20,000 nucleotides of DNA from the IMG/VR virus record IMGVR_UViG_3300044998_000523. One strand, written 5' to 3'. A model generated the notes under the pieces. That model was not told the DNA's origin, did no database searches, and was given only the letters and a program-made list of their open reading frames with translations. The position numbers and the translations under genes are program-made. This document shows positions 7,056-20,000 of this stretch, piece by piece; position 1 is the stretch's first letter; each line of letters opens with the position of its first letter. Source of the stretch: an uncultured virus (IMG/VR IMGVR_UViG_3300044998_000523) (lineage: Duplodnaviria > Heunggongvirae > Uroviricota > Caudoviricetes).

Positions 7056-7843
7056 GAGTTTTGAGGAAGGGAATGGTCGGTGATGATGTCATCGCCTGGC
7101 AGAATTTTTTGAGAGGTCTTTTGCCCGATTCTTTGGTCGTCGTCACCGGAAATTTCGATGACGTTACGCACAATGAGACCGTTCGGTTTCAAAAGATGAG
7201 CGGTTTGCGGCCCGACGGCGTCGTCGGTCCCAATACGGCAGGATCAGCTCTCAAATTGGGCTATCACGCCATGACAGACGATTCTTCCGACGACACGGGT
7301 CCCAATTGGCCAGCTAAACCAGCGGGAGTCTCATCCCTCTCCGCCGCGGATAGAGAAAAGTTGTTTGGCAAGTTTTCCTATGTGCCCGCGCCCAGTCAGT
7401 GGAATCCCGAAGGCATCAAAATCACGGACAACTGGGCTGCCAACAATATCACGACTGTCAGCGTCCCGCAGCTGATGCTTGTCAACGGCGGTCCCAAAGA
7501 CGGCAAAGTGAGCTTTCACGTCAAGGGAGCTAAACAGCTGCAGGATCTTTTTTCTGAGTGGGAATCGGCGGGTCTGATGAATCGAGTGCTGACGTGGGGC
7601 GGTTCGTGGGTCCCTCGTTACGTGAGAGGTTCTCGTACGTATCTTTCCAATCATTCGTGGGGTACGGCTTTCGATATCAACGCTCAGTGGAACGGATTGG
7701 GAGCCCGGCCGGCGACTAAGGGTCTGAAAGGCTCAGTCCGCGAATTGGTCACCATCGCTGACAAGCACGGTTTCTTTTGGGGCGGCTGGTGGGACGGACG
7801 ACCAGACGGGATGCATTTCGAGTGCTACAAAATCATTCCGTGA
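7052..7843 (+). CDS. endolysin: peptidoglycan-binding domain + M15-family metallopeptidase
   Basis: N-terminal LRKGMVGDDV...FQKMSGLRPDGVVGPNT (PG_binding_1). C-terminal SNHSWGTAFDIN and DGMHFE Zn motifs. Confidence 0.9.
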   Translation: MRVLRKGMVGDDVIAWQNFLRGLLPDSLVVVTGNFDDVTHNETVRFQKMSGLRPDGVVGPNTAGSALKLGYHAMTDDSSDDTGPNWPAKPAGVSSLSAADREKLFGKFSYVPAPSQWNPEGIKITDNWAANNITTVSVPQLMLVNGGPKDGKVSFHVKGAKQLQDLFSEWESAGLMNRVLTWGGSWVPRYVRGSRTYLSNHSWGTAFDINAQWNGLGARPATKGLKGSVRELVTIADKHGFFWGGWWDGRPDGMHFECYKIIP

Positions 7844-8430
7844 ATTCGTATGTGTACTGCATCACTAATTTAGTGAACGGTAAACGTTATGTTGGCAAGA
7901 CGAATCATCCTAATCGTCGATGGAAGGATCATTGCAATCCGGATCTAAAGTCTTCGGGAGGTATGATCATACCCTTCGCAATTATGAAATACGGCGCTCA
8001 GAATTTCAAATTTGAGATCGTTGCAGAATGTTCTTCTGAAGAAGAGGCTTTCGAACTTGAAAAGAAGTTCATCGTCGAATGGCAGACAACGGATCGGTCT
8101 AAGGGCTACAATATGAATGAAGGTGGTTGTGGAGGTATTAATCCGACTCCAGAAGTTCGAGAGAAAATTGGAGCTCGACACCGAGGTAAGAAAATTTCTG
8201 ACAAACAGAAAGAAATGATTTCGAAAGTTCATAAGGGCAAAGTGATGTCCGAAGAGTCTTGTCGAAAAATGTCTGCATCTCGTACGGGATCTGGAAACGG
8301 TCGTTACGGAATGATTGCTTCAGAAGAGACTAAAGCTAAAATGAAAAAGCCTCATCGATGTTCTCTTTGCGGACGAACGGGTCATATCAAACCAACCTGT
8401 AGAAAAACTCGTAGTATGATACTTCCCTAA
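7840..8430 (+). CDS. GIY-YIG homing endonuclease with NUMOD3-type repeats and C-terminal CCHC zinc knuckle
   Basis: GTG start overlapping the upstream TGA. YVYCITNLVNGKRYVGKT...GYNMNEGG, then KGKVMSEES and SEETKAKM repeats, then CSLCGRTGHIKPTC. Confidence 0.9.
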   Translation: MNSYVYCITNLVNGKRYVGKTNHPNRRWKDHCNPDLKSSGGMIIPFAIMKYGAQNFKFEIVAECSSEEEAFELEKKFIVEWQTTDRSKGYNMNEGGCGGINPTPEVREKIGARHRGKKISDKQKEMISKVHKGKVMSEESCRKMSASRTGSGNGRYGMIASEETKAKMKKPHRCSLCGRTGHIKPTCRKTRSMILP

Positions 8431-8451: not shown

Positions 8452-9720
8452 ATGTCGGAAGGTCGGATCGTTGTCGTTGGTTTGGGTTACGTCGGGCTGC
8501 CGCTAGCTGTTGAGCTGGCTAAGAAATTTGAGGTCGTCGGCGTCGACAAGGACCCCACCCGGATATCCCAGCTTAAAGCGGGATATGATCGAACGGGAGA
8601 GATCAGATCAGACGATCTGATCTCAACTACAGCCGCCTGGGAGACGTCCCTATCGGGAGTCACGGGTACGTTTTATATCGTGGCGGTTCCCACGCCTGTC
8701 GATAAGCGTAACGATCCGGACTTCCGACCGCTTGATTCGGCCAGCAAGTGGGTGGGAGAGCGTCTGAAGAGCGGTGACGTCGTTGTTTATGAGTCGACGG
8801 TCTACCCGGGTGCCACCGAAGAGCGCTGCTTGCCGATCCTGCTGAAGGAATCGAAGCTACAACGCAAGGATATCGGTCTGGGTTATTCTCCCGAACGAAT
8901 CAATCCCGGAGACAAGGAACACACCCTGACTCGAGTGACGAAAGTCATCTCGGCTGATTCTCCCGAAACGATGGAGAGGGTCGCTTTCGTCTATTCGGTC
9001 GTCGCCCCCATTTTCGAAGCCAAGAGCATTAAGGCGGCGGAGGCTGCTAAGGTCATCGAAAACACGCAGAGGGATCTTAATATCGCTCTGATGAATGAAC
9101 TGTCCCTCATCTTTGAAAAGATGGACCTGCGGACGGAGGATGTCCTCGCCGCGGCCCGGACCAAGTGGAATTTTCTCGACTTCAAACCGGGTCTCGTCGG
9201 TGGGCACTGCATCGGAGTAGATCCTTACTATCTGACGTATAAGGCTCGCGAGATGGGTCATCATCCTGAAGTCATCTTGTCGGGTCGTAGAGTCAATGAT
9301 TCGATGGCTAGCTGTGTCGCTCGAAAAACGGTGCAGCTTTTGCAAGGAGTCCCCAAGATTCAGCGCGGGTATCGTGTCCTCGTCCTCGGAGCGACCTTCA
9401 AAGAAAACTGCCCTGATACCCGCAATAGTAAGGTGCCTGATCTTGTTCGAGAGCTCGAGGCCTTAGGCGCGGCGGTCACCCTTGTCGATCCCTTTGCTCA
9501 TCCGGCCGAATTTTTCGAAGAATACGGAGTCGATGTCAGAAATGAGCTACCTGTATCGTCAAAATATGATGGAGTAATCCTGGCCGTGCCTCACAAGCAA
9601 TACCTTGATATCGTTTCGAAAATGGTTCCGACGTGGCTCACGGACTACTGTGTCTTGGTCGATGTCAAGAGCGTTCTAGACCCTCTCGACTATGTCAGGT
9701 ATACGTATTGGAGTCTATGA
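8452..9720 (+). CDS. UDP-N-acetyl-hexosamine dehydrogenase (TviB/WbpO/WecC family nucleotide-sugar dehydrogenase)
   Basis: GLGYVGLP Rossmann motif, ESTVYPG, YSPERINPGD, EAAKVIENTQRDLNIA, GGHCIGVDPYYL and FKENCPDTRNS. Confidence 0.95.
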   Translation: MSEGRIVVVGLGYVGLPLAVELAKKFEVVGVDKDPTRISQLKAGYDRTGEIRSDDLISTTAAWETSLSGVTGTFYIVAVPTPVDKRNDPDFRPLDSASKWVGERLKSGDVVVYESTVYPGATEERCLPILLKESKLQRKDIGLGYSPERINPGDKEHTLTRVTKVISADSPETMERVAFVYSVVAPIFEAKSIKAAEAAKVIENTQRDLNIALMNELSLIFEKMDLRTEDVLAAARTKWNFLDFKPGLVGGHCIGVDPYYLTYKAREMGHHPEVILSGRRVNDSMASCVARKTVQLLQGVPKIQRGYRVLVLGATFKENCPDTRNSKVPDLVRELEALGAAVTLVDPFAHPAEFFEEYGVDVRNELPVSSKYDGVILAVPHKQYLDIVSKMVPTWLTDYCVLVDVKSVLDPLDYVRYTYWSL

Positions 9721-9727
9721 GGTCCAC

Positions 9728-10501
9728 ATGAAGACTCCGAAGCTGGGTGGATGGCGGCCCGAAGCGCCAGATTCCGAAGATCATCTGCTAGCCGATCATC
9801 CCGCCAAGATGATTCTCAAAGAGAGTCCATCCAACGGCATCGTTGATCTACGTAAATGGTGCTCTCCTGTCGAAGATCAGAGGGATCTGGGATCGTGTGT
9901 CGGTAATGCCGTCGTTGGCGGTCTAGAGCTGCTACAGATTCGTAATGGACAGCCGCTCAAGGATCTGTCTCGTCTCTTCGTTTATTACAATTCCAGGCTG
10001 ATGCATCAACAGGCCGATGTCGACGAAGGCACGTATATCAGGTTGGCGATGGGCACTCTATCGGCTTTGGGTACATGTTCGGAGGCCAAGTGGCCGTATG
10101 ACACGTCCAAGGTCTTTTATCGACCCAGCTGGGGAGCCTATCGAGAGGCCTACGCTAATAAGATTCAGAGCTACTATCGTATCGACGGCACGGGCTCCTA
10201 TCGTCTGACTCTCATCAATAAGGCTTTGGAGGCGGGCAATCCTGTCGTCTTTGGCTGCATGGTCGACAATCATTTCATAAGCACAGGTGGCGACGGTAAG
10301 GTTTCTATGCCGCGGCCCGGGCGAGCAGTGCAGGGCAGTCACGCCATGCTCATCGTCGGTTATAAGGATTTCGGTCGAACATTGATCGTTCGCAACTCTT
10401 GGGGTACGGGTTGGGGAGATCACGGTTATTGTTACATCCCGGATACGTACCTCGATGCCACCGATGCCAACGATTTCTGGGTACCATTTCTTTCTATATA
10501 A
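9728..10501 (+). CDS. papain-like cysteine peptidase (family C1)
   Basis: VEDQRDLGSCVGNA (Gln/Cys), HAMLIVGY (His) and IVRNSWGTGWGDHGY (Asn). GAGGT SD before ATG 9728. Confidence 0.92.
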   Translation: MKTPKLGGWRPEAPDSEDHLLADHPAKMILKESPSNGIVDLRKWCSPVEDQRDLGSCVGNAVVGGLELLQIRNGQPLKDLSRLFVYYNSRLMHQQADVDEGTYIRLAMGTLSALGTCSEAKWPYDTSKVFYRPSWGAYREAYANKIQSYYRIDGTGSYRLTLINKALEAGNPVVFGCMVDNHFISTGGDGKVSMPRPGRAVQGSHAMLIVGYKDFGRTLIVRNSWGTGWGDHGYCYIPDTYLDATDANDFWVPFLSI

Positions 10502-11131
10502 AGAGATGATGCCAATCTTGGTTCAAGGCCTGCTTATCTGTGATTCGTTTTAGGTCTATATTTTGTTGTTTGCAAAATTCGTCTAAGAGTCTATCTCTAT
10601 CAAATTTTTGCGAATTCGTTCTTCAAGTTTGTCATAGGGTTGATCTAATCCGTGCCAATATGTTCCATCGACTTCAATGAATAAGTTTTGGCTTGGAATG
10701 TAAAGATCAATAGAGCAAAGCCCAAAAGGGGTTTGAAGATAATGCCATCTTTTAACTTCTCTAAATCGTTTTAGACATTCTTCATATACAAGATTTTCCG
10801 CGTTGGAAGTGAAATTTGCTTTTCCCTTTTTTAGTTTTGTTTCGTTAGCTTTTTGTCTGTTTTGCGGTTCATGAGCTATTGAGAGCGCTCTAAGACATTG
10901 GCCGCTTAATGCAGCGTTTTTTCCTGAGATCGGACCTCCAGCTTTTCCGCCCTTCGACGCTATAGCGGCGTTATGACATGGTTTACAACAATGTTTATTT
11001 GATGATAAGACTTTTTTGTTTCCTCTTCGAGACCATTCTTTGAGACATTTAGAGCTGACACCAAAATCACATTTAAATCGATAAAGCTTGTAAAGTCCTG
11101 CGTATTTTTCTTTTGATACACCAAGCAACAT
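10494..11131 (-). pseudogene. Vsr/DUF559-like PD-(D/E)XK endonuclease, frameshifted near the C-terminus
   Basis: SIDLYIPSQNLFIEVDGTYWHG motif. The in-frame stop is at 10583, but the -1 frame from the A run at 10605-10609 continues KFDRDRLLDEFCKQQNIDLKRITD to TAG 10494-10496, which is the expected family C-terminus. AT-rich and the only minus-strand gene. Confidence 0.75.
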
Positions 11132-11192
11132 GACTATTGGGTTCCCTATTGTATATCTATGCTAAATTCACTCTAGAATATTCGGAGATAGA

Positions 11193-11519
11193 ATGATGAA
11201 GAAGCTTGTATTGATGTGTCTCGCATTATTGGCGATGGCACCCGATTGCGGTCCTCCGACCGGTCCGACTCCGCCTCCCGTTCCTCCTCCGCCTGTTCCA
11301 CCCAATACCGAACAGTGCGTCGACGCATGCGCCAACTTGAAGAAACTCAAGTGTCCCGAGGCCGAACCGATCAAGATGTCAGACGGATCGGCTGTGACTT
11401 GCGAGCAATTCTGTCGTGATACGCAAGGACAGGGAGTCTATCTCAACCCGGCGTGTGTCGCGACCGTAACGACTTGCGGCGAAGTCGAAACGAAGTGTTA
11501 CGTGGGCAAGGCTCGCTAA
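11193..11519 (+). CDS. secreted/lipoprotein-like Cys- and Pro-rich protein
   Basis: Signal peptide MMKKLVLMCLALLAMAPDC, poly-Pro linker and 8 further Cys. SD GGAGA. Confidence 0.75.
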   Translation: MMKKLVLMCLALLAMAPDCGPPTGPTPPPVPPPPVPPNTEQCVDACANLKKLKCPEAEPIKMSDGSAVTCEQFCRDTQGQGVYLNPACVATVTTCGEVETKCYVGKAR

Positions 11520-11525
11520 AAAGCA

Positions 11526-11554
11526 TGTAATCCTGGTCCTCCTTAATATAGGAT
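11526..11554 (+). promoter_or_regulatory. putative phage promoter
   Basis: TGTAAT-N17-TAGGAT, the same layout as 2702-2730. Confidence 0.5.
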
Positions 11555-11560
11555 GGCACC

Positions 11561-11833
11561 ATGGACTTTGAGATCAAGTTTGGGACGGGGTCGGCCATCT
11601 TTGGGTTGTGCCTTGTCCTGGCCTTTCCCATTTACGCGATCGTGCAGGCTAGCCGTTATAATGACGAGGTGGATTACTGCTACATCCAGCAGCACTCCGA
11701 AGGAGCCCTTCCTTATTACACGGTCTACGGGCACCGACCCTGGCGCCAGGACGTGACGAAAGCCTCGTATCGGTCCTTGGAAGATGCAGTTTCGGCGACG
11801 AAAGAATTAAATTGCCCCCTCGAAAAAAAGTAG
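11561..11833 (+). CDS. hypothetical membrane protein
   Basis: N-terminal transmembrane segment SAIFGLCLVLAFPIYAIV, followed by a soluble domain. Confidence 0.7.
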   Translation: MDFEIKFGTGSAIFGLCLVLAFPIYAIVQASRYNDEVDYCYIQQHSEGALPYYTVYGHRPWRQDVTKASYRSLEDAVSATKELNCPLEKK

Positions 11834-11861
11834 TGTAAACGAGAAACCACTAAGATATAGT
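11833..11861 (+). promoter_or_regulatory. putative promoter of the tRNA island
   Basis: A-tract, then GTGTAAAC-N15-TATAGT. The motif recurs at 13981 and 14427. Confidence 0.6.
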
Positions 11862-11953
11862 ATAGACTACCAGCCATGCTGACCAAACGCACACAGCAAC
11901 GATTGCAAGGGACAAAGCGCACGCGCTAATGGCGCGCCTTTCCTCTTAGCTCT

Positions 11954-12026
11954 GCTGTCGTGATGTCAATGGCTAACATACCTCACTCGTAATGAGGTCA
12001 TCCGGGTTCGAATCCCGGCGACAGCT
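11954..12026 (+). tRNA. tRNA-Thr(CGT)
   Basis: GCTGTCG/CGACAGC acceptor, CCTCA-CTCGTAA-TGAGG anticodon arm, GGTTCGAATCC T arm. Confidence 0.92.
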
Positions 12027-12050
12027 CCGAATGATTCGATTCAATCTCAT

Positions 12051-12121
12051 TCAGGGGTCGTCTAACTGGTAGGACTCTTGGCTCTGAACCAAGCAATGGG
12101 GGTCGATTCCCTCGCCCTGAT
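12051..12121 (+). tRNA. tRNA-Gln(CTG)
   Basis: TCAGGG/CCCTGA acceptor and CTTGG-CTCTGAA-CCAAG arm. The T arm GGGGGTCGATTCCCTC is slightly aberrant. Confidence 0.8.
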
Positions 12122-12138
12122 CTAGGAAAGGTAAAGTC

Positions 12139-12396
12139 ATGATTTTCGCAAGATTGAAGGTCGGTGTCATGGATCCTAGTTCGAAAGAATTCGAGGAGAA
12201 TGATTCGTATGACCTCGAAGCCCACGAATCGGTCAATGGGTTGCTCGAGGCCAATCATTCTCACGAGGATGACGAGTGCAATCATGCCATCCTTGAGCTC
12301 GTCTTCCCGATGGGAGAAGTGACTCTTCTTTCTGTCAAGAAGATTCAAACTCGCAGCGCGCAGGGAAAGCTTAAGGTTCGCTGGCGTCTGACATAA
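12139..12396 (+). CDS. hypothetical protein
   Basis: 85 aa ORF with SD AAGG/AGGA that fills the gap between two tRNAs. Confidence 0.6.
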   Translation: MIFARLKVGVMDPSSKEFEENDSYDLEAHESVNGLLEANHSHEDDECNHAILELVFPMGEVTLLSVKKIQTRSAQGKLKVRWRLT

Positions 12397-12405
12397 TAGT
12401 TATTT

Positions 12406-12477
12406 TGGTCGTTCTTCCAACGGCTAGGAAAACCGGCTCCCGGGTAATGGGGGGTTCGAATCCCTCACGACCAACCA
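12406..12477 (+). tRNA. tRNA-like gene lacking most of the anticodon loop (undetermined)
   Basis: TGGTCGT/ACGACCA-A-CCA with normal D and T arms. The anticodon arm is CCGG-CTC-CCGG, a loop of only 3 nt. Confidence 0.7.
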
Positions 12478-12493
12478 AAGAAAAGAGATTATC

Positions 12494-12721
12494 ATGAGTC
12501 AAAAGACGACCGACCCGCCCATCGAATTGCTCGAGCAGCTTCTTTCTGCCACTCCCTTCGGAGAAAAGGTCAAGGTGCCCAATAAGCGATCCGAGCTGGT
12601 CGCTATGCGAGAGCGGCTCTTCATGATGGGTCGAGGCAACGGCCGCGATTTTGCTTATATCGATTCCCTGCTCGATTACGAGCGCCAAGGACGAATCGAA
12701 TTTCTTCCGGAGGATAGCTGA
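12494..12721 (+). CDS. hypothetical protein
   Basis: 75 aa ORF between a tRNA and the next ORF, with codon usage like its neighbours. Confidence 0.6.
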   Translation: MSQKTTDPPIELLEQLLSATPFGEKVKVPNKRSELVAMRERLFMMGRGNGRDFAYIDSLLDYERQGRIEFLPEDS

Positions 12722-12722
12722 A

Positions 12723-12878
12723 ATGGATCAAGAGACGATTAACAAGCTGGGATTGGCGACGAAGATCTTCGGAGCCGTCCTTTTTGTGGTCTGCGCAGGA
12801 GCCCTCGTCTGGTCACTCTTCAGACCCGCCGTAACGGAAGGCCCGATGCCTCCCGAGCCGGCTCCGATGCAACGATAA
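12723..12878 (+). CDS. small membrane protein
   Basis: MDQETINKLG... with SD GGAGG, one transmembrane segment (IFGAVLFVVCAGALVWSLF) and a Pro-rich tail. Confidence 0.65.
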   Translation: MDQETINKLGLATKIFGAVLFVVCAGALVWSLFRPAVTEGPMPPEPAPMQR

Positions 12879-12885
12879 TGAATTT

Positions 12886-12964
12886 CGGTCCGTGGTGTCA
12901 ACGGTATTAACATACTTGGCTCTTACCCAACGAGATGAGGGTTCGATTCCCTCCGAGCCCACCA
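12886..12964 (+). tRNA. tRNA-Lys(CTT), imperfect acceptor stem
   Basis: TTGG-CTCTTAC-CCAA arm, GAGGGTTCGATTCCCTC T arm and ACCA end. The acceptor stem has two mismatches. Confidence 0.7.
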
Positions 12965-12968
12965 CAAG

Positions 12969-13244
12969 ATGTTCAAAAGCAGCATATGCAAAATTTGCGG
13001 AAGAACGTTTCCTCATGGATATCGATGCCAATCATGCGGCCACGATACATGGATGAGAGATCCGATTCCGATCGAGATTGATCACATCGATAGAGATTCT
13101 AGAAACAATGAAAGAGAAAATCTCCGTTTGATTTGTCCTAATTGTCACGCGCAAACTGACACTTACAAGGGCCGAAACATCGGAAAGAATCCGGATACAA
13201 AGAGAGCAGAGACTCTCAAAAAGCATTATGGAAAGTATCGATAA
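12969..13244 (+). CDS. HNH endonuclease (short, possibly internally deleted)
   Basis: CQSC...IEIDHIDRDSRNNERENLRLICPNCHAQT, with an orphan N-terminal CKIC. Confidence 0.85.
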   Translation: MFKSSICKICGRTFPHGYRCQSCGHDTWMRDPIPIEIDHIDRDSRNNERENLRLICPNCHAQTDTYKGRNIGKNPDTKRAETLKKHYGKYR

Positions 13245-13522
13245 ATGAGAATTAGTCAACGAAATTGCGTTCTTGTCGAAGGCACGAATGGAGAAATGTA
13301 CATTCCTATCGATACCAACGAATCAACAGCGTTTTGCGTCAACCGAAAAGATATGCTTGATAAGGGCATTTTGAAAAGCAGACTCGCTCGCTCGAAATAA
13401 AGCCTCGAAATCGCTGCCTCTTCTTGAAAAAGAAAGGTATTCGAATCGAATCTATCAGACATGATTCTCGACGTCCGGTTAACCATCCCGATGGTCCGGT
13501 TTAGGTGAAATAACAGCAATTT

Positions 13523-13610
13523 GGACGCGTGAGAGTTAGTTGCGAATTTGGCACAGCACGCCTGCTCAAACCAGGTTCTTTTGTGGGTTCGAGTCCCACC
13601 GCGTCTACCA
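13523..13610 (+). tRNA. tRNA-Leu(CAA), atypical
   Basis: GGACGCG/CGCGTCT-A-CCA, GCCTG-CTCAAAC-CAGGT and a canonical T arm. About 10 extra nt lie between acceptor stem and D arm, and the variable region is short. Confidence 0.7.
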
Positions 13611-13619
13611 ACTCAAAAG

Positions 13620-13959
13620 ATGATCAAAAGCGAAATTTCCTTTCCTCAAGAGACTGTCGGAATCGGTCTCGAAGATCGATCATCCCAGCATCGATATCCA
13701 ACTCGTCGCTAACGAGGATGTATACGTCGAAAGCGACGCCTTCGAGCAGCTCTTAAAGCTGCGAGTCATCACTCCGATCTATCCCGAGTCCCCGCGCATC
13801 AAGTCACGTCGGGACATCATGACCTAGTATCGCAAGCGTGGCATGGAAAAGATGCCGTACGCTTACAAGGACATCGAGCCTGTCATCGATTCAGCCGAAG
13901 AGGCTCAGATTGCCAAGAAAGTGGTTCGTTTGGCTCCTCTGTGCATTGTCAAGGGCTAG
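13620..13959 (+). pseudogene. rtcB: RtcB RNA ligase remnant (large internal deletion, in-frame TAG, 5' frameshift)
   Basis: The frame from 13624 reads ...KIDHPSIDIQLVANEDVYVESDAFEQLLK|LRVITPIYPESPRIKSRRDIMT*YRKRGMEKMPYAYKDIEPVIDSAEEAQIAKKVVRLAPLCIVKG*. The PxAYKDI...V..L.P...KG* ending is the RtcB C-terminal signature. Confidence 0.85.
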
Positions 13960-13980
13960 GAGAAAAAAGTGACAGGGTGA

Positions 13981-14009
13981 GTGTAAACAGTCGACTACCA
14001 TGTTAGATT
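13981..14009 (+). promoter_or_regulatory. putative promoter
   Basis: A-tract, then GTGTAAAC-N15-TAGATT, about 20 nt upstream of tRNA-Glu. Confidence 0.6.
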
Positions 14010-14028
14010 TAGAATCCTAGTCAATCTG

Positions 14029-14103
14029 GCCCCCATCGACCACTGGCTAAGTCAGCTGGTTTTCACCCAGCAGAACCGGGATCGATACCCGGTGGGGTCA
14101 CCA
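14029..14103 (+). tRNA. tRNA-Glu(TTC)
   Basis: GCTGG-TTTTCAC-CCAGC arm, CCGGGATCGATACCCGG T arm and ACCA end. Confidence 0.88.
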
Positions 14104-14107
14104 GTTT

Positions 14108-14171
14108 GGTCCTGTCATGCTAACGGCTTAGGCGACTGCCCTCTCAAGGCAGGGATACGGGTTCGAATCCC
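14108..14171 (+). pseudogene. 3'-truncated tRNA-Glu(CTC)
   Basis: GGTCCTG 5' strand, D arm, CTGCC-CTCTCAA-GGCAG and ACGGGTTCGAATCCC, then unrelated sequence. No CAGGACC 3' strand follows. Confidence 0.75.
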
Positions 14172-14224
14172 TCCGCTATTAAGACACATGCACAAAGGAG
14201 AAGGAGTGAGACTAGAACCGCTCA

Positions 14225-14335
14225 ATGTGCAAGTTCTGCATGCTGGCTCAGCAGTTGTCGGGCCAACCGATGATGTGCAAGCCGTGCTGGCACAAGGCTT
14301 ATAAAAATCGTAAGCCGAAGAAGCGACAGAGTTGA
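14225..14335 (+). CDS. 36-aa CxxC..CxxC zinc-binding mini-protein (or remnant)
   Basis: MCKFCMLAQQLSGQPMMCKPCWHKAYKNRKPKKRQS*, ending just before a terminator. Confidence 0.45.
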   Translation: MCKFCMLAQQLSGQPMMCKPCWHKAYKNRKPKKRQS

Positions 14336-14340
14336 GTGAG

Positions 14341-14368
14341 AAGGACCCATTCGGGTCCTTTTCCTTTT
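14341..14368 (+). terminator. intrinsic terminator
   Basis: AAGGACCC-ATTC-GGGTCCTT hairpin followed by TTCCTTTT. Confidence 0.8.
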
Positions 14369-14426
14369 AATAGGAGCGGCTAGTTTTCAAGGCCTCCGAG
14401 CAAAAAAGAAAAAAGTGCTCGCGGAA

Positions 14427-14455
14427 GTGCAAACAGCCTGCAGATCTGGTATATC
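14427..14455 (+). promoter_or_regulatory. putative promoter
   Basis: A-tracts, then GTGCAAAC-N15-TATATC(T), directly after the terminator and upstream of a structured RNA. Confidence 0.5.
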
Positions 14456-14469
14456 TATAAAACACGACG

Positions 14470-14805
14470 AACTCAAGCGGTTCGGAGCAAGACAATGAAC
14501 TTCGTAGATTCACATAGCAGAATGGGGAGCCGAGATTCGGCGGACCTGTGCGTGTGGTCCGATGCTGTCCGCCCGAACGTCGCCGCCCTTATCAATCCCT
14601 TTCGGGGATGATAAGTCGCGGAGCCGGCCCGAATCCGGCAAAGAGTCACGAGTCCCCGATAGGGGACGGAAGCTTCATAAGATGTCGCTTCTTGGGTTTG
14701 TCGCCGCTCTAACGGAATACCGGATGAAGCGACTGGAGCGGATGCTTGAAGGCATCTGACGCCAACCAAGATGGAGATATGGGAATGACCGTATCTTCGA
14801 AAGCA
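14470..14805 (+). ncRNA. unclassified large structured RNA (~335 nt)
   Basis: No credible ORF. Many helices, including GTTCGG/CCGAAC, CTTATCA/TGATAAG, GTCCCC/GGGGAC, and the crossing pairs GTCGCTTC/GAAGCGAC and CCGCTCTA/TGGAGCGG. Ends are approximate. Confidence 0.6.
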
Positions 14806-14815
14806 CAATGTATTT

Positions 14816-14890
14816 GCCCGCGTAGTTCAGTGGATTTAGAACGCCTGTCTACGAAACAGGAGGTCGCAGGTTCGAGTCCTGCCGCGGGTA
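14816..14890 (+). tRNA. tRNA-Arg(ACG)
   Basis: Canonical cloverleaf with CCTGT-CTACGAA-ACAGG. Confidence 0.95.
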
Positions 14891-14929
14891 CTATTCTCCT
14901 TAATATACGTGCATACGCACGTTCAATTT

Positions 14930-15005
14930 GCCACCTAAGCTAATCTGGTGAAAGCGGCTGCCTGAAGAGCAGCAGAGCTCGGCTCGAAACCGAGAGGTGG
15001 CACCA
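14930..15005 (+). tRNA. tRNA-Phe(GAA)
   Basis: GCCACCT/AGGTGGC-A-CCA and GCTGC-CTGAAGA-GCAGC. Confidence 0.9.
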
Positions 15006-15076
15006 AACACGAAGTTTCGTCGATGAAACAAAGTGTTGTACAGGACATCCTACCTGGTTTAGGATGATCTTACTTT

Positions 15077-15153
15077 CAGCGTGTAGCTCAGCCTGGTATT
15101 AGAGCGCTACCTTGGGGTGGTAGAGGTCGCGGGTTCGAATCCCGCTTCGCTGA
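15077..15153 (+). tRNA. tRNA-Pro(GGG)
   Basis: CTACC-TTGGGGT-GGTAG with canonical D and T arms. One mismatch in the acceptor stem. Confidence 0.88.
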
Positions 15154-15155
15154 CT

Positions 15156-15463
15156 CGGTTGGTGGTCGTATCTGGTGGTCGAAACTTAACTCCCGCTCGG
15201 GGTAAGACACCGGCAACGGACACTGGTCGGATCTAACGTATCTAGGAAGCATAAAGCAGCGGCGAAGGGGATCAATGCAGTGGCCTATTCCTCTTCAAAG
15301 CATAACGCCGACACTAATCGGACCAGAGCTTGGGCGTTTGCGAGTAAAACCTCGCTCCGTCGCTAACGGTGAGATCGCTACTCACCTAGACGGATGGCTG
15401 AAGAATGCGACTTTGATAGGAAGGTAAAAGAGGTGGTTCTCTTTTCGGATCGATCATCAACCG
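15156..15463 (+). ncRNA. unclassified large structured RNA (308 nt)
   Basis: 13-bp terminal helix CGGTTGGTGGTCG/CGATCATCAACCG enclosing nested helices (CTGGTC/GACCAG, CGGCG/CGCCG, GCGAG/CTCGC, TCCGTC/GACGGA, GGTGAG/CTCACC, AAAAGAG/CTCTTTT). It fills the inter-tRNA gap almost exactly. Confidence 0.7.
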
Positions 15464-15467
15464 TAAC

Positions 15468-15542
15468 GGACGAGTAGCTCAGCAACAGAGCGACCGGATT
15501 TTAACCGGGAGGTCGGAGGTGTAAGTCCTCCCTCGTCCACCA
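15468..15542 (+). tRNA. tRNA-Lys(TTT), non-canonical elbow
   Basis: GGACGAG/CTCGTCC-A-CCA and CCGG-ATTTTAA-CCGG. The D loop lacks GG and the T loop is TGTAAGT. Confidence 0.75.
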
Positions 15543-15543
15543 T

Positions 15544-15621
15544 GGAGAAGTAGCTCAGGCTAGAAGAGCGCCAGAAATTTGATTCTGGAGGTCGGGTGTG
15601 CAAATCATCCCTTTTCCACCA
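15544..15621 (+). tRNA. tRNA-like, undetermined anticodon (8-nt loop AATTTGAT)
   Basis: GGAGAAG/CTTTTCC-A-CCA, GCTC/GAGC D stem, CCAGA/TCTGG stem and T loop TGCAAAT. Confidence 0.7.
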
Positions 15622-15699
15622 AGACAAGAGACTAGAAGCCCTCCCGGAACATTGGGCCTAGCACGGAATATTCAGGTACCGAGGGCCTGGTGTTCATTT

Positions 15700-15772
15700 G
15701 CCCGAGTAGCTCAGCAACAGAGCGTCCCCAGTTTAACGGGGAAGGTCGAAGGTGTAAGTCCTTCCTCGGGCT
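15700..15772 (+). tRNA. tRNA-like, undetermined anticodon (8-nt loop AGTTTAAC; TTT or TTA)
   Basis: GCCCGAG/CTCGGGC acceptor and TCCCC/GGGGA stem. D arm and T loop are identical to those of the 15468 tRNA. Confidence 0.7.
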
Positions 15773-15779
15773 CTAATTT

Positions 15780-15855
15780 CCCACTGTAGCTCAGACTCGA
15801 GAGCGCCTGGCAAGAAGGCCGGGAGGCGATGGCTCGTTGCCATCCGGTGGGACCA
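15780..15855 (+). tRNA. tRNA-like, undetermined anticodon (loop CAAGAAGG)
   Basis: CCCACTG/CGGTGGG-A-CCA, GCTC/GAGC, CCTGG/CCGGG and T arm GATGG-CTCGTTG-CCATC. Confidence 0.68.
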
Positions 15856-15860
15856 ATCTT

Positions 15861-15936
15861 GAGGTCCTCGTCTAACACTGAGGATAGCTCCCAGAATCGG
15901 GAGAAGATCGAGGTGTGAATCCTCGGGACCTCGCCA
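15861..15936 (+). tRNA. tRNA-like, undetermined anticodon (6-nt loop AGAATC)
   Basis: GAGGTCC/GGACCTC-G-CCA, CTCCC/GGGAG and T arm CGAGG-TGTGAAT-CCTCG. Confidence 0.68.
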
Positions 15937-15941
15937 ACTTC

Positions 15942-16013
15942 TCCCTCGTAGCTTAACAAGAGAGCCCGGCGCTTCAGCCGGAGATCCTGTCTCGAAGGCA
16001 GGCGAGGGAGCCA
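15942..16013 (+). tRNA. tRNA-like, undetermined anticodon (6-nt loop GCTTCA)
   Basis: TCCCTCG/CGAGGGA-G-CCA, GCTT/GAGC, CCGGC/GCCGG and T arm CCTGT-CTCGAAG-GCAGG. Confidence 0.68.
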
Positions 16014-16019
16014 ATTTCA

Positions 16020-16097
16020 GGGGACCTAGTTTAGTACCAGCAGAACAACAGCTAAGTTAGGCTGAAGGCCGAGGTGCAATTCCTCGGGTCCCCTCCA
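16020..16097 (+). tRNA. tRNA-like, undetermined anticodon (loop TAAGTTAG)
   Basis: GGGGACC/GGTCCCC-T-CCA, CAGC/GCTG and T arm CGAGG-TGCAATT-CCTCG. Confidence 0.68.
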
Positions 16098-16100
16098 TTT

Positions 16101-16177
16101 GCTCGAGTACGCCAAAAGTAGAGCGGGCCCCATAAAGGCGGGGCTGGTTGGTGGTTCGTATCCACCCTCGAGTACCA
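16101..16177 (+). tRNA. tRNA-like, undetermined anticodon (8-nt loop ATAAAGGC)
   Basis: GCTCGAG/CTCGAGT-A-CCA, GCCCC/GGGGC and T arm GGTGG-TTCGTAT-CCACC. Confidence 0.68.
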
Positions 16178-16185
16178 AATTCATC

Positions 16186-16614
16186 ATGGAACTTGTAAAG
16201 TGTCCTCATTGTGATAAGATGTGTCATCCCAAATTTGGGATCAAAACACACATTTGGAGAGTCCACGGTGGAGGTCAGATTCATGATCCTAATCGAGGAT
16301 TCATTGACGGTTCTCGTTCTCAATGGAACAGAGATAAATGGAGCAAATCTCCAGATGAAATTCTTGTAAAGAGTGATAAGAAACACGGATCGCTAGGTCT
16401 TTGGCTTAAAAGAAGTGGGCGGGAGCACAAATGTGAAGTCTGCGAACTCGGTCCGTTTTGGAACGGTCAGAAACTAAATCTCCAAGTTGACCATATCGAC
16501 GGTGACAACACAAATCACGTTCCAACGAATCTTCGATTTATCTGTCCGAATTGTCACACTCAAACTCCAACTTATGCTTGGAGAAATAGAAAACGTAAAA
16601 AGTCTGGGCTATGA
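16186..16614 (+). CDS. HNH homing endonuclease with N-terminal C2H2 zinc finger
   Basis: CPHC...HIWRVH, then CEVC...LQVDHIDGDNTNHVPTNLRFICPNCHTQT. The start is taken at ATG 16186, after the tRNA. Confidence 0.88.
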   Translation: MELVKCPHCDKMCHPKFGIKTHIWRVHGGGQIHDPNRGFIDGSRSQWNRDKWSKSPDEILVKSDKKHGSLGLWLKRSGREHKCEVCELGPFWNGQKLNLQVDHIDGDNTNHVPTNLRFICPNCHTQTPTYAWRNRKRKKSGL

Positions 16615-16677
16615 CGTGCTGGTTGCACTGAGAAACCTGATAAGTTTCTTGGACAGATTCGATTTCTGTATAGCCCA
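16606..16677 (+). tRNA. tRNA-Ile(GAT)
   Basis: GGGCTAT/ATAGCCC and GAAAC-CTGATAA-GTTTC, with an unusual D arm. The 5' end overlaps the HNH stop codon. Confidence 0.75.
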
Positions 16678-16681
16678 CTAT

Positions 16682-16929
16682 CCTCTCGTGGCGGAAAGGA
16701 AGACGCGCCGTTAAAAAGCGATGGTCAAATCCACGGTCTCCTTGAGTGGAGGCGTCCAAGCTGACCCTGACACAAGCACGATGTGGTGTTGCCTAGGCGT
16801 GACATCAGGGAAGGCTACAGCAGGTTTGCGGAGGCACCGAATGGCAGCGAGTAGCGGTCGCTAGGGAAGCACGCTTGTCCTAAAAAGCTGTGGACGCGGT
16901 TGAGGGTTCGAATCCCTCCGAGAGGACCA
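16682..16929 (+). ncRNA. 248-nt tRNA-shaped RNA with ~175-nt structured insertion
   Basis: CCTCTCG/CGAGAGG-A-CCA acceptor, Leu-type D arm GCG-GAAAGGAAGA-CGC and canonical T arm GAGGGTTCGAATCCCTC, with a multi-helix insert between them. Confidence 0.75.
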
Positions 16930-16931
16930 AC

Positions 16932-17020
16932 TTGGCGTGCGTTAGTAGCCCGCTCGATCCGTCGTTATGCGGCGGGTGCCTGATCAGCCGAGTAGTCGGG
17001 TGCAAATCCCGAGCGCCAAA
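16932..17020 (+). ncRNA. tRNA-like RNA with branched anticodon domain
   Basis: TTGGCGT/GCGCCAA stem stacked on T arm TCGGG-TGCAAAT-CCCGA. A GCTCG/CGAGT stem encloses the hairpin ATCCGTCG-TTATG-CGGCGGGT. Confidence 0.55.
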
Positions 17021-17026
17021 ACATTT

Positions 17027-17119
17027 TCTCCCCTGCCGGAATTGGCATACGGTGCCCTCGAGGTAGGACGCCTAGGCAACGAAAGCGCGTTACGGGTTCG
17101 AGTCTCGTGGGGAGAACCA
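17027..17119 (+). tRNA. tRNA-Leu(GAG)-like, aberrant anticodon arm
   Basis: TCTCCCC/GGGGAGA-A-CCA, Leu-type D arm and long variable region. The anticodon arm GCCCT-CGAGGT-AGGAC has a 6-nt loop. Confidence 0.6.
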
Positions 17120-17212: not shown

Positions 17213-17287
17213 GGGAGAGTAGCTTAAGAAACAGAGCACCGGCCGTAGGGGCCGGGCGTGGCGGTGTAAAGCCGTCCTCTTCCACCA
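17213..17287 (+). tRNA. tRNA-like, undetermined (loop CGTAGGG, no U33)
   Basis: GGGAGAG/CTCTTCC-A-CCA, CCGGC/GCCGG and T loop TGTAAAG. The D loop lacks GG. Confidence 0.65.
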
Positions 17288-17628: not shown

Positions 17629-17701
17629 TCACCGATAGCTCAGTGGTAGCAGCGTTCGCCTGTTAAGCGATTGGTCGTAGGTTCAAATCCTGCCCGGTGA
17701 G
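17629..17701 (+). tRNA. tRNA-Asn(GTT)
   Basis: TCACCG/CGGTGA-G, TCGC-CTGTTAA-GCGA and T arm GTAGGTTCAAATCCTGC. Confidence 0.88.
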
Positions 17702-17708
17702 CAAATTT

Positions 17709-18239
17709 ATGAGTACGTGTCGTTATTGTAGACTTGAATTTGAGCCCAGAAAGTTGGGTGGTCATACGATTCGTTGCGCTTCAAATCCAAAGCGTCAAGA
17801 ATTGATTGATAAGATTGCTCAAAATCAGGTTGGAAAGTCACTGTCTCAAAAGCATCGAGACGCTCTGTCAGAGACTATTCTGAAACGAATCCAAGCTGGT
17901 ACGTGGCACAATTCATTTGCTCGTTGTCGTCGTCATTTCTATAAGGAACAGTCCTTCGACGGTTCTTGGGAAGTGTTTCTGGCGAAATGGTTCGATGAAC
18001 ACAGCATCGATTGGGTTCGAAACCAAGAAAAGTTTCCTTACGTCCTTGACAAGCAGAGAAGCTACGTTCCCGATTTCTACCTTCCTGATATCGATTGTTA
18101 CGTCGAAGTCAAAGGCTGGAAGACGCCAAAGGACGAAGCCAAATGGAGTCAATTTCCTCGCAGATTAGTCGTGCTTTCGGGCTCTGATTTGCAAGCTTTG
18201 GGATTGCCTATTACAGTCAGAAAAGACTGGAAAATATAA
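17709..18239 (+). CDS. PD-(D/E)XK endonuclease (TnsA-N-like) with N-terminal zinc finger and NUMOD3-like segment
   Basis: CRYC...HTIRC and LSQKHRDALSE, then GSWEVFLAKWFD...YVPDFYLPDIDCYVEVKGW. Confidence 0.82.
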   Translation: MSTCRYCRLEFEPRKLGGHTIRCASNPKRQELIDKIAQNQVGKSLSQKHRDALSETILKRIQAGTWHNSFARCRRHFYKEQSFDGSWEVFLAKWFDEHSIDWVRNQEKFPYVLDKQRSYVPDFYLPDIDCYVEVKGWKTPKDEAKWSQFPRRLVVLSGSDLQALGLPITVRKDWKI

Positions 18240-19711: not shown

Positions 19712-20000
19712 AGACTCTTTCCAAGATCAGCATCGCGGCAGCAGCTGCGATCTTCGTAGCCTGCGGCTCGCAGGTCGTCGAATTCCCGGAGTGCGATTGT
19801 CCGGTGGATACCTCTCCGCCCAGCAGCGTCGCTCCTCCGGGATCGAAAACCCCGCCCGTTCCGACGGGTTCTTCGACGGAAGAGCCCCCGCCCCCTCCGC
19901 CCCCTGTGGATGAGGAGGGTCAGCCCCCTGTCGATGAAGATGCGGGCCAGCCCCCTGTCGATGAAGATGCGGGCCAGCCCCCTGTCGATGAAGATGCGGG
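19708..20000 (+). CDS. lipoprotein with Pro-rich and QPPVDEDAG repeats (3'-truncated)
   Basis: Not in the ORF track. ATG overlaps the OmpA stop. Starts MKTLSKISIAAAAAIFVAC (lipobox FVAC) and is open to the window end. Confidence 0.85.
   Translation, partial: MKTLSKISIAAAAAIFVACGSQVVEFPECDCPVDTSPPSSVAPPGSKTPPVPTGSSTEEPPPPPPPVDEEGQPPVDEDAGQPPVDEDAGQPPVDEDA
19921..20000 (+). repeat. 27-bp tandem repeat, at least 3 copies
   Basis: CAGCCCCCTGTCGATGAAGATGCGGGC at 19921, 19948 and 19975 (the last cut by the window edge). Confidence 0.95.

What the first reader, a model, noticed from the sequence alone, without database searches (positions are those of the whole stretch)
16682..16929. 248-nt giant tRNA carrying a ~175-nt pseudoknotted domain
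Seen: a perfect acceptor stem with A-CCA, a Leu-like D arm and a canonical T arm bracket a large insert. The best manual fold has a pseudo-anticodon arm CCGTT-AAAAAGC-GATGG (16708-16724) and a hairpin TCCAC/GTGGA. A domain closed by GCGTCCA(16752-58)/TGGACGC(16891-97) follows, containing CCCTGA/TCAGGG and a crossing pair ACAAGC(16772-77)/GCTTGT(16873-78). It lacks the G3-U70 Ala identity and ALAA-type tag of tmRNA, and I see no group I P7 core. Inference: either a new tRNA-scaffolded ncRNA, using host tRNA processing to mature and stabilise a cargo domain, or an unusual tRNA intron.
Basis: partly seen in the sequence, partly recalled or inferred. Interest (0 to 1): 0.85.

Follow-up and report, generated by a model that had tools for sequence, protein, structure and literature searches.

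The report
Conserved giant tRNA-derived phage RNA
A large uncultured phage keeps a 248-base RNA gene built on a leucine-tRNA frame whose anticodon region has been rebuilt into a conserved branched domain, so it is probably a tRNA mimic that cannot read codons, not a broken tRNA, a tmRNA or a self-splicing intron.

Summary
The feature is real. Positions 16682-16929 (+) carry a 7-bp acceptor stem, A73-CCA, a D arm and a T arm around about 175 nt of extra RNA.

A relative about 90% identical (L008/G002, with L026) differs at 23 positions. Sixteen lie in 8 compensated base pairs, 3 keep their pair, 4 are unpaired and none breaks a pair. The whole fold is therefore under selection, including helices that join the "insert" to the 3' part.

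Rfam gives no tmRNA or group I hit, even at E<=10. The supported helices are nested, not arranged as in group I.

New points:
- The real anticodon-arm homologue (ACAGC / CU-N-AAAA / GCUGU) lies inside the "cargo". A 58-nt arm is inserted at position 31/32.

ARAGORN's intron calls disagree between the two homologues.

Best reading: a non-decoding RNA derived from tRNA-Leu and matured like a tRNA. It sits among other odd tRNA-like genes and, in the sister phage, next to rtcB. I suggest a role in the conflict over tRNA cleavage; this function is inferred. Splicing to a Phe-anticodon tRNA is not excluded.

The parts
16682..16688 (+). acceptor stem, 5' strand (CCTCTCG)
   Evidence: Pairs with 16919-25. 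T16686:A16921 becomes C:G in L008.
16691..16706 (+). D arm (GCG / GAAAGGAAGA / CGC) of tRNA-Leu type
   Evidence: The 19-nt string 16688-16706 is identical in 3 phage tRNA-Leu genes (L005-L007). It also occurs in one tRNA-Cys-like gene found on two contigs (L003/L004).
   Evidence: Present and invariant in all 3 sequences, so its pairing cannot be tested. It lies at the junction with the internal duplicate.
16713..16758 (+). decayed internal copy of the tRNA's own 3' part: A5GC, a T-arm-like GATGG-TCAAAT-CCAC, GAGTGGA and CCA
   Evidence: Global alignment of 16710-58 with 16879-16929 scores 33.5. Shuffles give 23.6 +/- 3.8, and 29 of 2000 reach the observed score. The comparison was made post hoc.
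16738..16751 (+). hairpin CTCC-TTGAGT-GGAG
   Evidence: Its 4 pairs are intact in 3 of 3 sequences. Position 16746 in the loop varies G/T here, and an A variant was seen in a laid contig.
16752..16757 (+). closing helix, 5' strand (GCGTCC), pairs with 16892-16897
   Evidence: Two compensated pairs: CG>TA at 16753/54 with CG>TA at 16895/96. The same changes appear in contigs of runs X9 and X17.
16759..16816 (+). arm A of the three-way junction (AGCT/GGCT, CCCTGA/TCAGGG, invariant distal part)
   Evidence: Two compensated pairs (16761:16814 and 16768:16807) and 2 one-sided changes that keep the pair.
16817..16821 (+). ACAGC, homologue of the anticodon stem 5' strand, pairs with 16887-91
   Evidence: A16817:T16891 becomes T:A in L008. 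The central CAG/CTG is shared with the tRNA-Leu anticodon stems of L006/L007.
16822..16879 (+). arm B, a 58-nt insertion at anticodon-loop position 31/32. Its base AGG pairs with CCT 16879-81.
   Evidence: Compensated pairs 16838:16864 and 16847:16855, plus A16822>G, which keeps the pair with T16881.
16880..16886 (+). remnant of the anticodon loop: C-T-A-A-A-A-A here, C-T-G-A-A-A-A in L008
   Evidence: MAFFT aligns it to the CT-T/C-AAAA anticodon loops of the tRNA-Leu genes. Its first two bases are paired into arm B.
16887..16897 (+). GCTGT (anticodon stem 3' strand homologue) followed by GGACGC (closing helix 3' strand)
   Evidence: Both covary with the upstream strands 16817-21 and 16752-57.
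16898..16918 (+). linker GGTT and the T arm GAGGG-TTCGAAT-CCCTC
   Evidence: The Rfam tRNA model aligns positions 44-63 here. The 17-nt T arm is identical to that of the tRNA-Leu(UAA) gene in L006.
16919..16929 (+). acceptor stem 3' strand CGAGAGG, discriminator A, encoded CCA

Best explanation
The locus encodes one 248-nt structured RNA derived from a tRNA-Leu-type gene. It keeps every module that tRNA-handling enzymes read: a 7-bp acceptor stem, A73, encoded CCA, a Leu-type D arm and a T arm. Its anticodon region has been rebuilt in three ways. (1) A decayed copy of the tRNA's own 3' part now follows the 5' part. (2) The original anticodon stem survives but is lengthened by a new 6-bp helix and carries a side arm (arm A). 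(3) A 58-nt arm (arm B) sits in the anticodon loop and pairs with its first two bases. No contiguous 7-nt anticodon loop with U33 is left, so the RNA as encoded cannot decode. I read it as a tRNA mimic. It would be cut out of the tRNA-array transcript by the usual tRNA end-processing enzymes and perhaps charged. It would act through binding, as a decoy or platform for a tRNA-recognising factor in the conflict over tRNA cleavage and repair. Shown: the gene, its conservation, its fold and its tRNA-Leu ancestry. Inferred: maturation by tRNA enzymes, no splicing, and the decoy or platform role.
For: Fold under selection:
- 23 differences to L008: 16 in 8 compensated pairs, 3 one-sided changes that keep the pair, 4 unpaired, 0 breaking a pair.
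- In 0 of 500 shuffles were 8 compensated pairs reached; slid controls gave 0-1.
- G:U intermediates fit the + strand only.

Ancestry:
- D-arm string identical to 3 tRNA-Leu genes, and T arm identical to that of L006.
- Anticodon loop and stem aligned to 16880-91.
- An internal duplicate of the 3' part.

Not a known family:
- No tmRNA found by ARAGORN.
- No Rfam family at gathering score.
- No tmRNA or group I hit at E<=10.

Not a consistent intron:
- ARAGORN -i gives Phe(AAA) with a 168-nt intron in the window and Arg(CCU) with a 164-nt intron in G002.
- Its anticodon stem is 67% paired and loses a pair in the relatives.

Context:
- The gene lies 3 nt after tRNA-Ile, in a same-strand array.
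- The array holds about 8 further tRNA-like genes with 6- or 8-nt loops or no U33. Most of them are kept in G002.
- G002 carries an intact rtcB inside the array and an RlaP-family gene elsewhere on its contig.
- Passages of PMC7824862 describe such genes in jumbo phages as counter-measures to anticodon-loop cleavage.

Expression:
- A 229-nt contig of an RNA library covers 16698-16927 unspliced (X17 record 2). DNA carry-over in that library cannot be ruled out.
Against: - No direct proof exists of a stable 248-nt RNA, of its ends, of charging or of any partner.
- Only two diverged lineages are known (window; L008/L026), so 50 of the 69 proposed pairs never vary.
- The folding energy is not unusual (z = -0.85).
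- Looping out 16822-16879 would leave a perfect 5-bp stem and a 7-nt loop with U33. The one anticodon-position change between lineages (A>G at 16882) keeps a Phe anticodon. The sister phage has rtcB. All three points fit a spliced decoder.
- The decoy or platform function rests on gene neighbourhood alone.
Confidence: 0.55

Rival explanations
1. It is a pre-tRNA with two non-group-I intervening segments, about 16708-16816 and 16822-16879. These are cut out by a protein endonuclease and the ends are sealed by RtcB (phage or host). The product is an ~81-nt tRNA with a Leu-type body and a Phe anticodon (AAA or GAA).
For: - Without 16822-79 the arm reads ACAGC-CTAAAAA-GCTGT in the window and TCAGC-CTGAAAA-GCTGA in G002. 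The stem is perfect and covaries, and U33 and A37 are present.
- The change at 16882 is synonymous at the anticodon level.
- An intact rtcB lies inside the tRNA array of G002.
Against: - Two separate excisions would be needed.
- I could draw no bulge-helix-bulge motif at either pair of borders (by eye).
- The window's own rtcB is a remnant lacking residues ~45-415.
- The helix 16752-57/16892-97 covaries, which only matters if the long form folds.
- A canonical tRNA-Phe(GAA) already exists at 14930-15005.
- No bacterial or phage tRNA intron other than group I is described in the one paper I read on the subject (10.1101/2020.01.27.920355).
Confidence: 0.12
2. It is a Y-RNA-like or tmRNA-like working partner of a protein machine. 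One form would be a tRNA-like module that recruits an RNA-repair complex (Ro/RtcB type). The other would be a charged RNA that enters ribosomes without codon reading.
For: - Weak Rfam alignment to Deinococcus_Y_RNA over the T-arm region (19.5 bits, E 0.48).
- RNA-repair genes in the sister phage.
- PMC7824862 notes phage ROT/TROVE proteins that work with a tRNA-like partner.
- The overall layout (acceptor and T arm plus a large internal domain) recalls tmRNA.
Against: - The Y RNA score is far below the gathering score of 80 and covers only the generic T arm.
- The ends here form an open acceptor stem with CCA, not a Ro-binding stem.
- U3:A70 stands in place of G3:U70.
- ARAGORN found no tag frame and no Rfam tmRNA family matched.
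- No TROVE or SmpB gene was seen in the ~75 kb examined. That is only a fraction of the genome.
Confidence: 0.1
3. It is a recombination scar. A tRNA gene was scrambled by repair after homing-endonuclease cuts, is still transcribed, and has no function.
For: - The array is interspersed with HNH and GIY-YIG genes.
- There is an internal duplicate of the 3' part.
- rtcB nearby has suffered a ~1.2-kb deletion.
Against: - 8 compensated pairs and no pair-breaking change among 23 differences.
- The 5' 64 nt are invariant except for one compensated acceptor position.
Confidence: 0.07
4. It is a tRNA gene interrupted by a small self-splicing group I (or group-I-like) intron.
For: - The hairpin CCGTT/GATGG ends in a U:G pair, as P1 does at a 5' splice site.
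- tRNA-Leu genes are classic hosts of group I introns.
Against: - No Intron_gpI match even at E<=10 on 401 nt. The paper read uses 18-20 bits of this model as its working threshold.
- The covarying helices are nested, with no P3/P7-type crossing.
- There is no G at the 3' junction ARAGORN proposes.
- The ancestral anticodon loop is uninterrupted at the classic 34/35 site.
- At 164-168 nt the insert is short for a group I core (recalled, not tested).
Confidence: 0.03

Closest known systems
Phage T4 species 1 RNA (rnaC; also rnaD), the stable small RNAs of the T4 tRNA cluster
   Same: Both are encoded inside a phage tRNA gene cluster next to a homing endonuclease gene. rnaC has a canonical T arm near its 3' end, a terminal stem and long extra hairpins. 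It is annotated only as a 'small, stable RNA' (annotation; fold).
   Different: rnaC is 139 nt. Its annotated 3' end carries no CCA, and I saw no D arm in its fold. I did not test sequence homology. The RNA here keeps a complete tRNA-Leu-type frame and a traceable anticodon arm.
tmRNA (SsrA)
   Same: An acceptor stem, T arm and CCA frame a large structured internal domain.
   Different: U3:A70 stands in place of the G3:U70 alanine identity pair. A true D stem is present. ARAGORN found no tag frame, and no Rfam tmRNA family matched.
Bacterial tRNA genes with group I introns in the anticodon loop (e.g. tRNA-Leu(UAA), site CUU/AAAA)
   Same: A tRNA-Leu-type gene with extra RNA in and around the anticodon loop. 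ARAGORN's intron mode reports it.
   Different: There is no group I core by covariance model, the helices are nested, there is no omega-G, and the insertion site is 31/32 rather than 34/35. Source read: 10.1101/2020.01.27.920355, part 1 of 2 of its text.
Class II tRNA-Leu genes of uncultured phages (L005-L007)
   Same: Identical D-arm string. The T arm is identical to that of L006. They share A73-CCA and the anticodon stem core CAG/CTG with a CT-N-AAAA loop.
   Different: Those genes are 85-88 nt and have an ordinary anticodon arm and V arm. Here 167 nt more are present and the V-arm nucleotides pair with an upstream strand.
Bacterial Y RNAs (YrlA) with a tRNA-like module
   Same: A tRNA-like T-arm module joined to a second structured module. 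They are linked to RtcB-type repair operons (PMC4201824, listing and start of abstract only; PMC7824862, passages).
   Different: In Y RNAs the two ends form the protein-binding stem and the tRNA-like part is internal (recalled). Here the ends form the acceptor stem. The Rfam score is 19.5 against a gathering score of 80.

Membership tests
canonical decoding tRNA | 7-bp acceptor stem, discriminator, D arm and T arm | tested here: met
canonical decoding tRNA | Contiguous 5-bp anticodon stem with a 7-nt loop, U33 and a purine at 37; total length about 70-95 nt | tested here: not met
   Default ARAGORN and the Rfam tRNA model do not call it. The only 7-nt hairpin loop is AAAAAGC, with A at position 33. 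The ancestral loop is split from its stem by 58 nt.
tRNA with an anticodon-loop intron | One excision that gives the same canonical tRNA in all homologues | tested here: not met
   ARAGORN -i gives Phe(AAA), intron 168 nt, in the window and Arg(CCU), intron 164 nt, in G002. The proposed stem is 67% paired.
group I intron | Match to the Rfam Intron_gpI covariance model | tested here: not met
   No hit at gathering score or at E<=10 on 16600-17000.
group I intron | P3/P7 pseudoknot topology around a P4-P6 domain | tested here: not met
   All helices with covariation are nested. The partner of 16752-57 lies 3' of the partner of 16817-21.
group I intron | U:G pair at the 5' splice site and G at the last intron position | tested here: inconclusive
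   U16712:G16720 exists. At ARAGORN's 3' junction the intron ends in C. The true junctions, if there are any, are unknown.
group I intron | GTP-dependent self-splicing | not testable with these tools
   Needs an in vitro assay.
tmRNA | G3:U70 alanine identity pair | tested here: not met
   T16684:A16923, the same in L008.
tmRNA | Tag reading frame with a resume codon and stop; match to tmRNA models | tested here: not met
   No tmRNA found by ARAGORN. No Rfam tmRNA family matched.
bacterial Y RNA (YrlA) | Match to Y RNA models; the ends form the Ro-binding stem | tested here: not met
   19.5 bits against a gathering score of 80, over the T arm only. The ends form an acceptor stem with CCA.
archaeal-type (bulge-helix-bulge) tRNA intron | Two 3-nt bulges separated by a 4-bp helix at the splice sites | tested here: not met
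   Inspected by eye around 16707/16817 and 16821/16880. Only a 3-bp TTT/AAA pairing could be drawn, and it competes with the AGG/CCT helix. No program was run.
tRNA-Leu (aminoacylation identity) | Charging by leucyl-tRNA synthetase | not testable with these tools
   A73 and the Leu-type D arm are present. That the enzyme ignores the anticodon is recalled knowledge.

The most novel reading that the evidence does not exclude
A bacteriophage pre-tRNA matured by protein-dependent splicing of the archaeal or eukaryal kind. Two intervening segments that are not group I introns would be cut out and the ends sealed by RtcB. The product would put a Phe anticodon on a leucine-type body, that is, a tRNA the phage could switch on, or one that recodes.
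Probability: 0.1. Interest if true: 0.9.

Novelty: new variant of a known kind. Interest (0 to 1): 0.62.

Why it matters
Phage tRNA clusters have long been known to hold stable tRNA-like RNAs of unknown role; T4 rnaC and rnaD are still annotated only as stable RNAs.

This locus is an unusually readable case. The tRNA-Leu ancestry, the internal duplication and the added arms can each be traced base by base. The fold is backed by 8 compensated pairs from a single sister lineage.

It sits in an array with about eight other conserved tRNA-like genes that lack a normal anticodon loop. In the sister phage it also lies beside an RtcB ligase gene.

This suggests that some large phages carry a set of non-decoding tRNA mimics as part of the contest over tRNA cleavage and repair. 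If the RNA is charged, or is spliced by proteins, it would extend what tRNA-shaped RNAs are known to do in bacteria.

It also gives a natural design for a tRNA scaffold that carries a 170-nt cargo.

Tried and rejected
Searches for more homologues:
- blastn of 16600-17000 against 50,697 phage records found no match.
- Exact-pattern scans of viral contigs used a 34-mer of the T arm and acceptor (0 loci) and a 17-mer (3 loci: L009 and L010 are chance matches, L011 is G002 again).
- An 18-mer found G002 only.
- A 20-mer in metagenome contigs gave 2 loci: L026 is real and L025 is a coding-sequence chance match.
- The same 20-mer in genome contigs gave 5 loci, all unrelated coding matches.
- Relatives of the OmpA-like protein gave 2 loci, L013 and L014. 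Neither reaches the RNA.

Read laying:
- No contig joins across the insert in the 4 runs laid. Contigs cannot show absence, so this is no evidence against splicing.
- The joint 16706>16900 with 21 other letters (X17) is a different, normal-sized tRNA with a TAG anticodon that shares the D and T arms. It is not a spliced form.
- One X5 contig leaves the window sequence after 16765. I tried to find that junction in viral contigs and found nothing. It stays unexplained.

Other points:
- A test of 16759-16821 as a decayed copy of the tRNA 5' part was not significant (1125 of 2000 shuffles as good).
- Alternative pairing of the 5' acceptor strand with the internal copy (16743-49) loses two more pairs in L008, so I rejected it.
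- The shared motif GAGTAGCG in T4 rnaC (twice) and in this RNA is probably chance. It varies in L008 and L026.
- The promoter and terminator scan gave nothing specific next to the gene.
- Earlier-findings look-ups by place and by sequence returned nothing.

Full report
**Setting**

The window is a fragment of an uncultured virus. The nearest held record, G001, is the same sequence (100% over 16600-17000) and is rated 6% complete at 21 kb. A sister record, G002, is 54.9 kb and rated 16% complete. It is collinear with window 9000-16950 at 75-92% identity.

Pfam finds phage-type genes in both records:
- GIY-YIG and HNH endonucleases, a 5'-3' exonuclease, NUDIX, an M15 peptidase with a peptidoglycan-binding domain, and an OmpA-like protein.
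- In G002: a DnaB-like helicase, ribonucleotide reductase, ThyX, a Pol III alpha-like polymerase, RlaP and RtcB.

That the virus is a very large phage of a Gram-negative host is my inference from these results.

Positions 11.95-18.53 kb are a same-strand tRNA array. The candidate starts 3 nt after tRNA-Ile(GAU) (16606-16678) and ends 2 nt before the next tRNA-like gene.

**The observation**

Default ARAGORN and the Rfam tRNA model do not call a tRNA here. At E<=10 the tRNA model aligns only the T arm, at 14.7 bits. The minimum free energy of the single sequence is not unusual: -90.6 kcal/mol, z = -0.85, and 36 of 200 shuffles fold as well.

**Homologues**

- The 19-nt D-arm string found 6 loci in viral contigs.
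- One of them, L008, lies at the end of G002 and is a full-length homologue.
- Three loci (L005-L007) are ordinary 85-88-nt tRNA-Leu genes, one CAA and two UAA.
- Two loci (L003/L004) hold the same sequence, a tRNA-Cys-like gene.
- A 20-mer scan of metagenome contigs added L026. It resembles L008, carries two further changes, both at unpaired positions, and is cut at its contig end.
- All other pattern hits were chance matches.
- The phage genome collection holds nothing similar.

Sampled words of the stretch occur in 20 public runs of 17 studies. I laid four runs from three studies. Their contigs carry window-like and L008-like variants.

**Structure**

The window and L008 differ at 23 of 248 columns:
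- 16 differences form 8 pairs changed on both sides.
- 3 are one-sided changes that keep a standard pair.
- 4 are unpaired.
- None breaks a pair.

On the structure I wrote out (69 pairs, 15 helices) every one of 195 cells is paired. In 0 of 500 shuffles were 8 compensated pairs reached. Sliding the partners by 1-3 columns gave 0-1 compensated pairs and 38-47% pairing. RNAalifold found the same 8 pairs on its own.

Contigs in the laid runs repeat these paired changes. They also show an intermediate, G at 16807 with T kept at 16768, which is a G:U pair on the + strand only.

The supported helices are:
- the acceptor stem;
- a 6-bp closing helix, 16752-57/16892-97;
- arm A, 16759-16816;
- a 5-bp helix, 16817-21/16887-91;
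- arm B, 16822-16879.

Together these form a nested three-way junction.

The crossing pair ACAAGC/GCTTGT and a possible loop-loop pairing TGCCT/AGGCA never vary, so they cannot be judged. Fifty of the 69 pairs never vary, so the distal parts of both arms remain uncertain.

**What it is not**

- *tmRNA.* ARAGORN finds no tmRNA. No Rfam family reaches its gathering score. At E<=10 there is no tmRNA hit on 16600-17000. Position 3:70 is U:A.
- *Group I intron.* There is no Intron_gpI hit at E<=10. A preprint on tRNA group I introns, of which I read part 1 of 2, uses 18-20 bits of that model as a working threshold and finds all such introns within the anticodon loop. The covarying helices are nested, not crossed as P3/P7 would be.
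- *Y RNA.* The best other Rfam match is a Y RNA model at 19.5 bits against a gathering score of 80, over the T arm only.
- *Two separate decayed tRNAs.* The two ends belong together, because the acceptor pair 16686:16921 changes from T:A to C:G.

**New anatomy**

MAFFT, given the two giant RNAs and the three tRNA-Leu genes, aligns columns G7 to C25 without change. It puts the single large gap after the start of the anticodon stem. It aligns the Leu anticodon loop and 3' stem strand to 16880-16891.

The upstream partner of GCTGT is ACAGC (16817-21), and this helix covaries. So the ancestral anticodon arm is still present inside the supposed cargo:
- stem 16817-21/16887-91;
- loop C-T-A-A-A-A-A, which is C-T-G-A-A-A-A in L008.

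The 58-nt arm B is inserted between positions 31 and 32, and its base pairs with the first two loop bases.

Positions 16710-16758 align with 16879-16929. The shared blocks are A5GC, a T-arm-like GATGG-TCAAAT-CCAC, CTCC, GAG-N-GGA and CCA. The score is 33.5 against 23.6 +/- 3.8 for shuffles, and 29 of 2000 shuffles reach it. The comparison was chosen post hoc.

I read 16713-16758 as a decayed internal copy of the tRNA's 3' part. The closing helix pairs the CCA-end remnant of the copy with what were the variable-region nucleotides. A matching test for a decayed 5' part in arm A was negative.

**Intron or permanent domain?**

ARAGORN's intron mode reports Phe(AAA) with a 168-nt intron in the window and Arg(CCU) with a 164-nt intron in G002. 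Its anticodon stem has one pair that never forms and another that is lost in L008 and L026. No single excision therefore gives a conserved canonical tRNA.

Nucleotides 16887-97 covary with upstream strands of the long form. This implies that the long form must fold.

An RNA-library contig of 229 nt covers 16698-16927 without a break (X17 record 2). Another bridges 16856-17094. Both could be precursor RNA or carried-over DNA.

Three results point towards splicing:
- Looping out arm B alone leaves a perfect, covarying anticodon stem-loop.
- The A/G difference at 16882 keeps a Phe anticodon.
- G002 has an intact rtcB inside the array.

Three results weigh against it:
- A second excision (16708-16816) would also be needed.
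- I could draw no bulge-helix-bulge motif.
- The window's own rtcB lacks residues ~45-415.

**Mechanism I commit to**

The RNA is a non-decoding mimic derived from tRNA-Leu. It would be released from the array transcript by tRNA end-processing and perhaps charged. Both steps are inferred from the intact acceptor, T and D modules and A73-CCA. It would act by binding a tRNA-recognising factor.

The neighbourhood points to the conflict over tRNA cleavage:
- About eight neighbouring tRNA-like genes have 6- or 8-nt anticodon loops or lack U33. Most of them recur in G002, with compensated acceptor changes.
- G002 encodes RtcB and an RlaP-family protein.
- Passages of PMC7824862 describe such genes in jumbo phages as answers to anticodon-loop cleavage.
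- PMC10264068 and PMC11555353 (titles and starts of abstracts only) report that phage tRNAs evade tRNA-targeting defences.

I put about 0.55 on 'unspliced functional tRNA mimic'. Within that, the specific decoy or platform role is a guess.

**Comparison and novelty**

The nearest architectural analogue I could examine is T4 rnaC. It lies in the T4 tRNA cluster, has a canonical T arm, a terminal stem and long hairpins, and is annotated only as a stable RNA.

Five literature searches returned no description of a tRNA-Leu frame with an internal 3'-part duplicate and a branched anticodon region. Those searches cover open-access text only.

Earlier notes of this scan list other phage tRNA-shaped RNAs with inserted domains. 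They are leads, not support.

I rate this a new variant of a known kind: tRNA-derived stable RNAs of phage tRNA clusters.

Noticed in passing
window 15544-16177, 16932-17119 and 17213-17287: About eight further tRNA-like genes have good acceptor, D and T arms but odd anticodon regions. They show 6- or 8-nt anticodon loops (15544, 15700, 15780, 15942, 16020, 16101, 17027), G33 (17213-17287, called 'Leu-TAG' with a short variable loop) or a class-II body with a TAT anticodon (16932-17020). Most recur in G002, with compensated acceptor-stem changes.
   Followed up: partly
window 13633-13956; G002 49827-51335 (L030:9827-11335): G002 has an intact RtcB RNA ligase gene (Pfam 4.8e-88) inside the tRNA array. 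The window keeps only its first ~44 and last ~87 codons, an internal deletion of about 1.2 kb with an in-frame stop.
   Followed up: yes
window 987-1565, 7777-8430, 12969-13244, 16099-16614; also 10583-11131(-) and 17697-18239: Homing-endonuclease-type genes (GIY-YIG, HNH) are scattered through the region and the tRNA array. The two ORFs without a Pfam hit share a C-terminal motif that looks like a PD-(D/E)XK nuclease (by eye).
   Followed up: no
window 13523-13610: An 88-nt class-II tRNA that ARAGORN labels Val(CAC). Its loop reads CT-CAA-AC, and the G002 orthologue is called Leu(CAA). It is probably the array's tRNA-Leu(CAA).
   Followed up: no
window 14157-14175: A T-arm-like string (ACGGGTTCGAATCCCTCCG) for which ARAGORN calls no tRNA, even at the relaxed threshold. 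Long non-coding gaps in the array (13.25-13.5, 14.1-14.8 and 15.15-15.47 kb) were not examined.
   Followed up: no
window 19909-20000: 27-nt tandem repeats encoding a proline- and acidic-rich repeat at the start of an ORF that runs off the window.
   Followed up: no
run X17, contig joining 16706 to 16900 (table 5c): A normal-sized tRNA in a wastewater RNA library shares the D and T arms of the giant RNA. It has an ordinary anticodon arm with a TAG anticodon and a short variable loop. It may be an uninterrupted relative.
   Followed up: no
run X5, contig ending at 16765 (tables 7 and 8): A 620-nt DNA contig matches 16732-16765 exactly and then continues with unrelated sequence that resembles another tRNA's T-arm region. 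This could be a different arrangement of this segment in a relative, or an assembly branch.
   Followed up: partly
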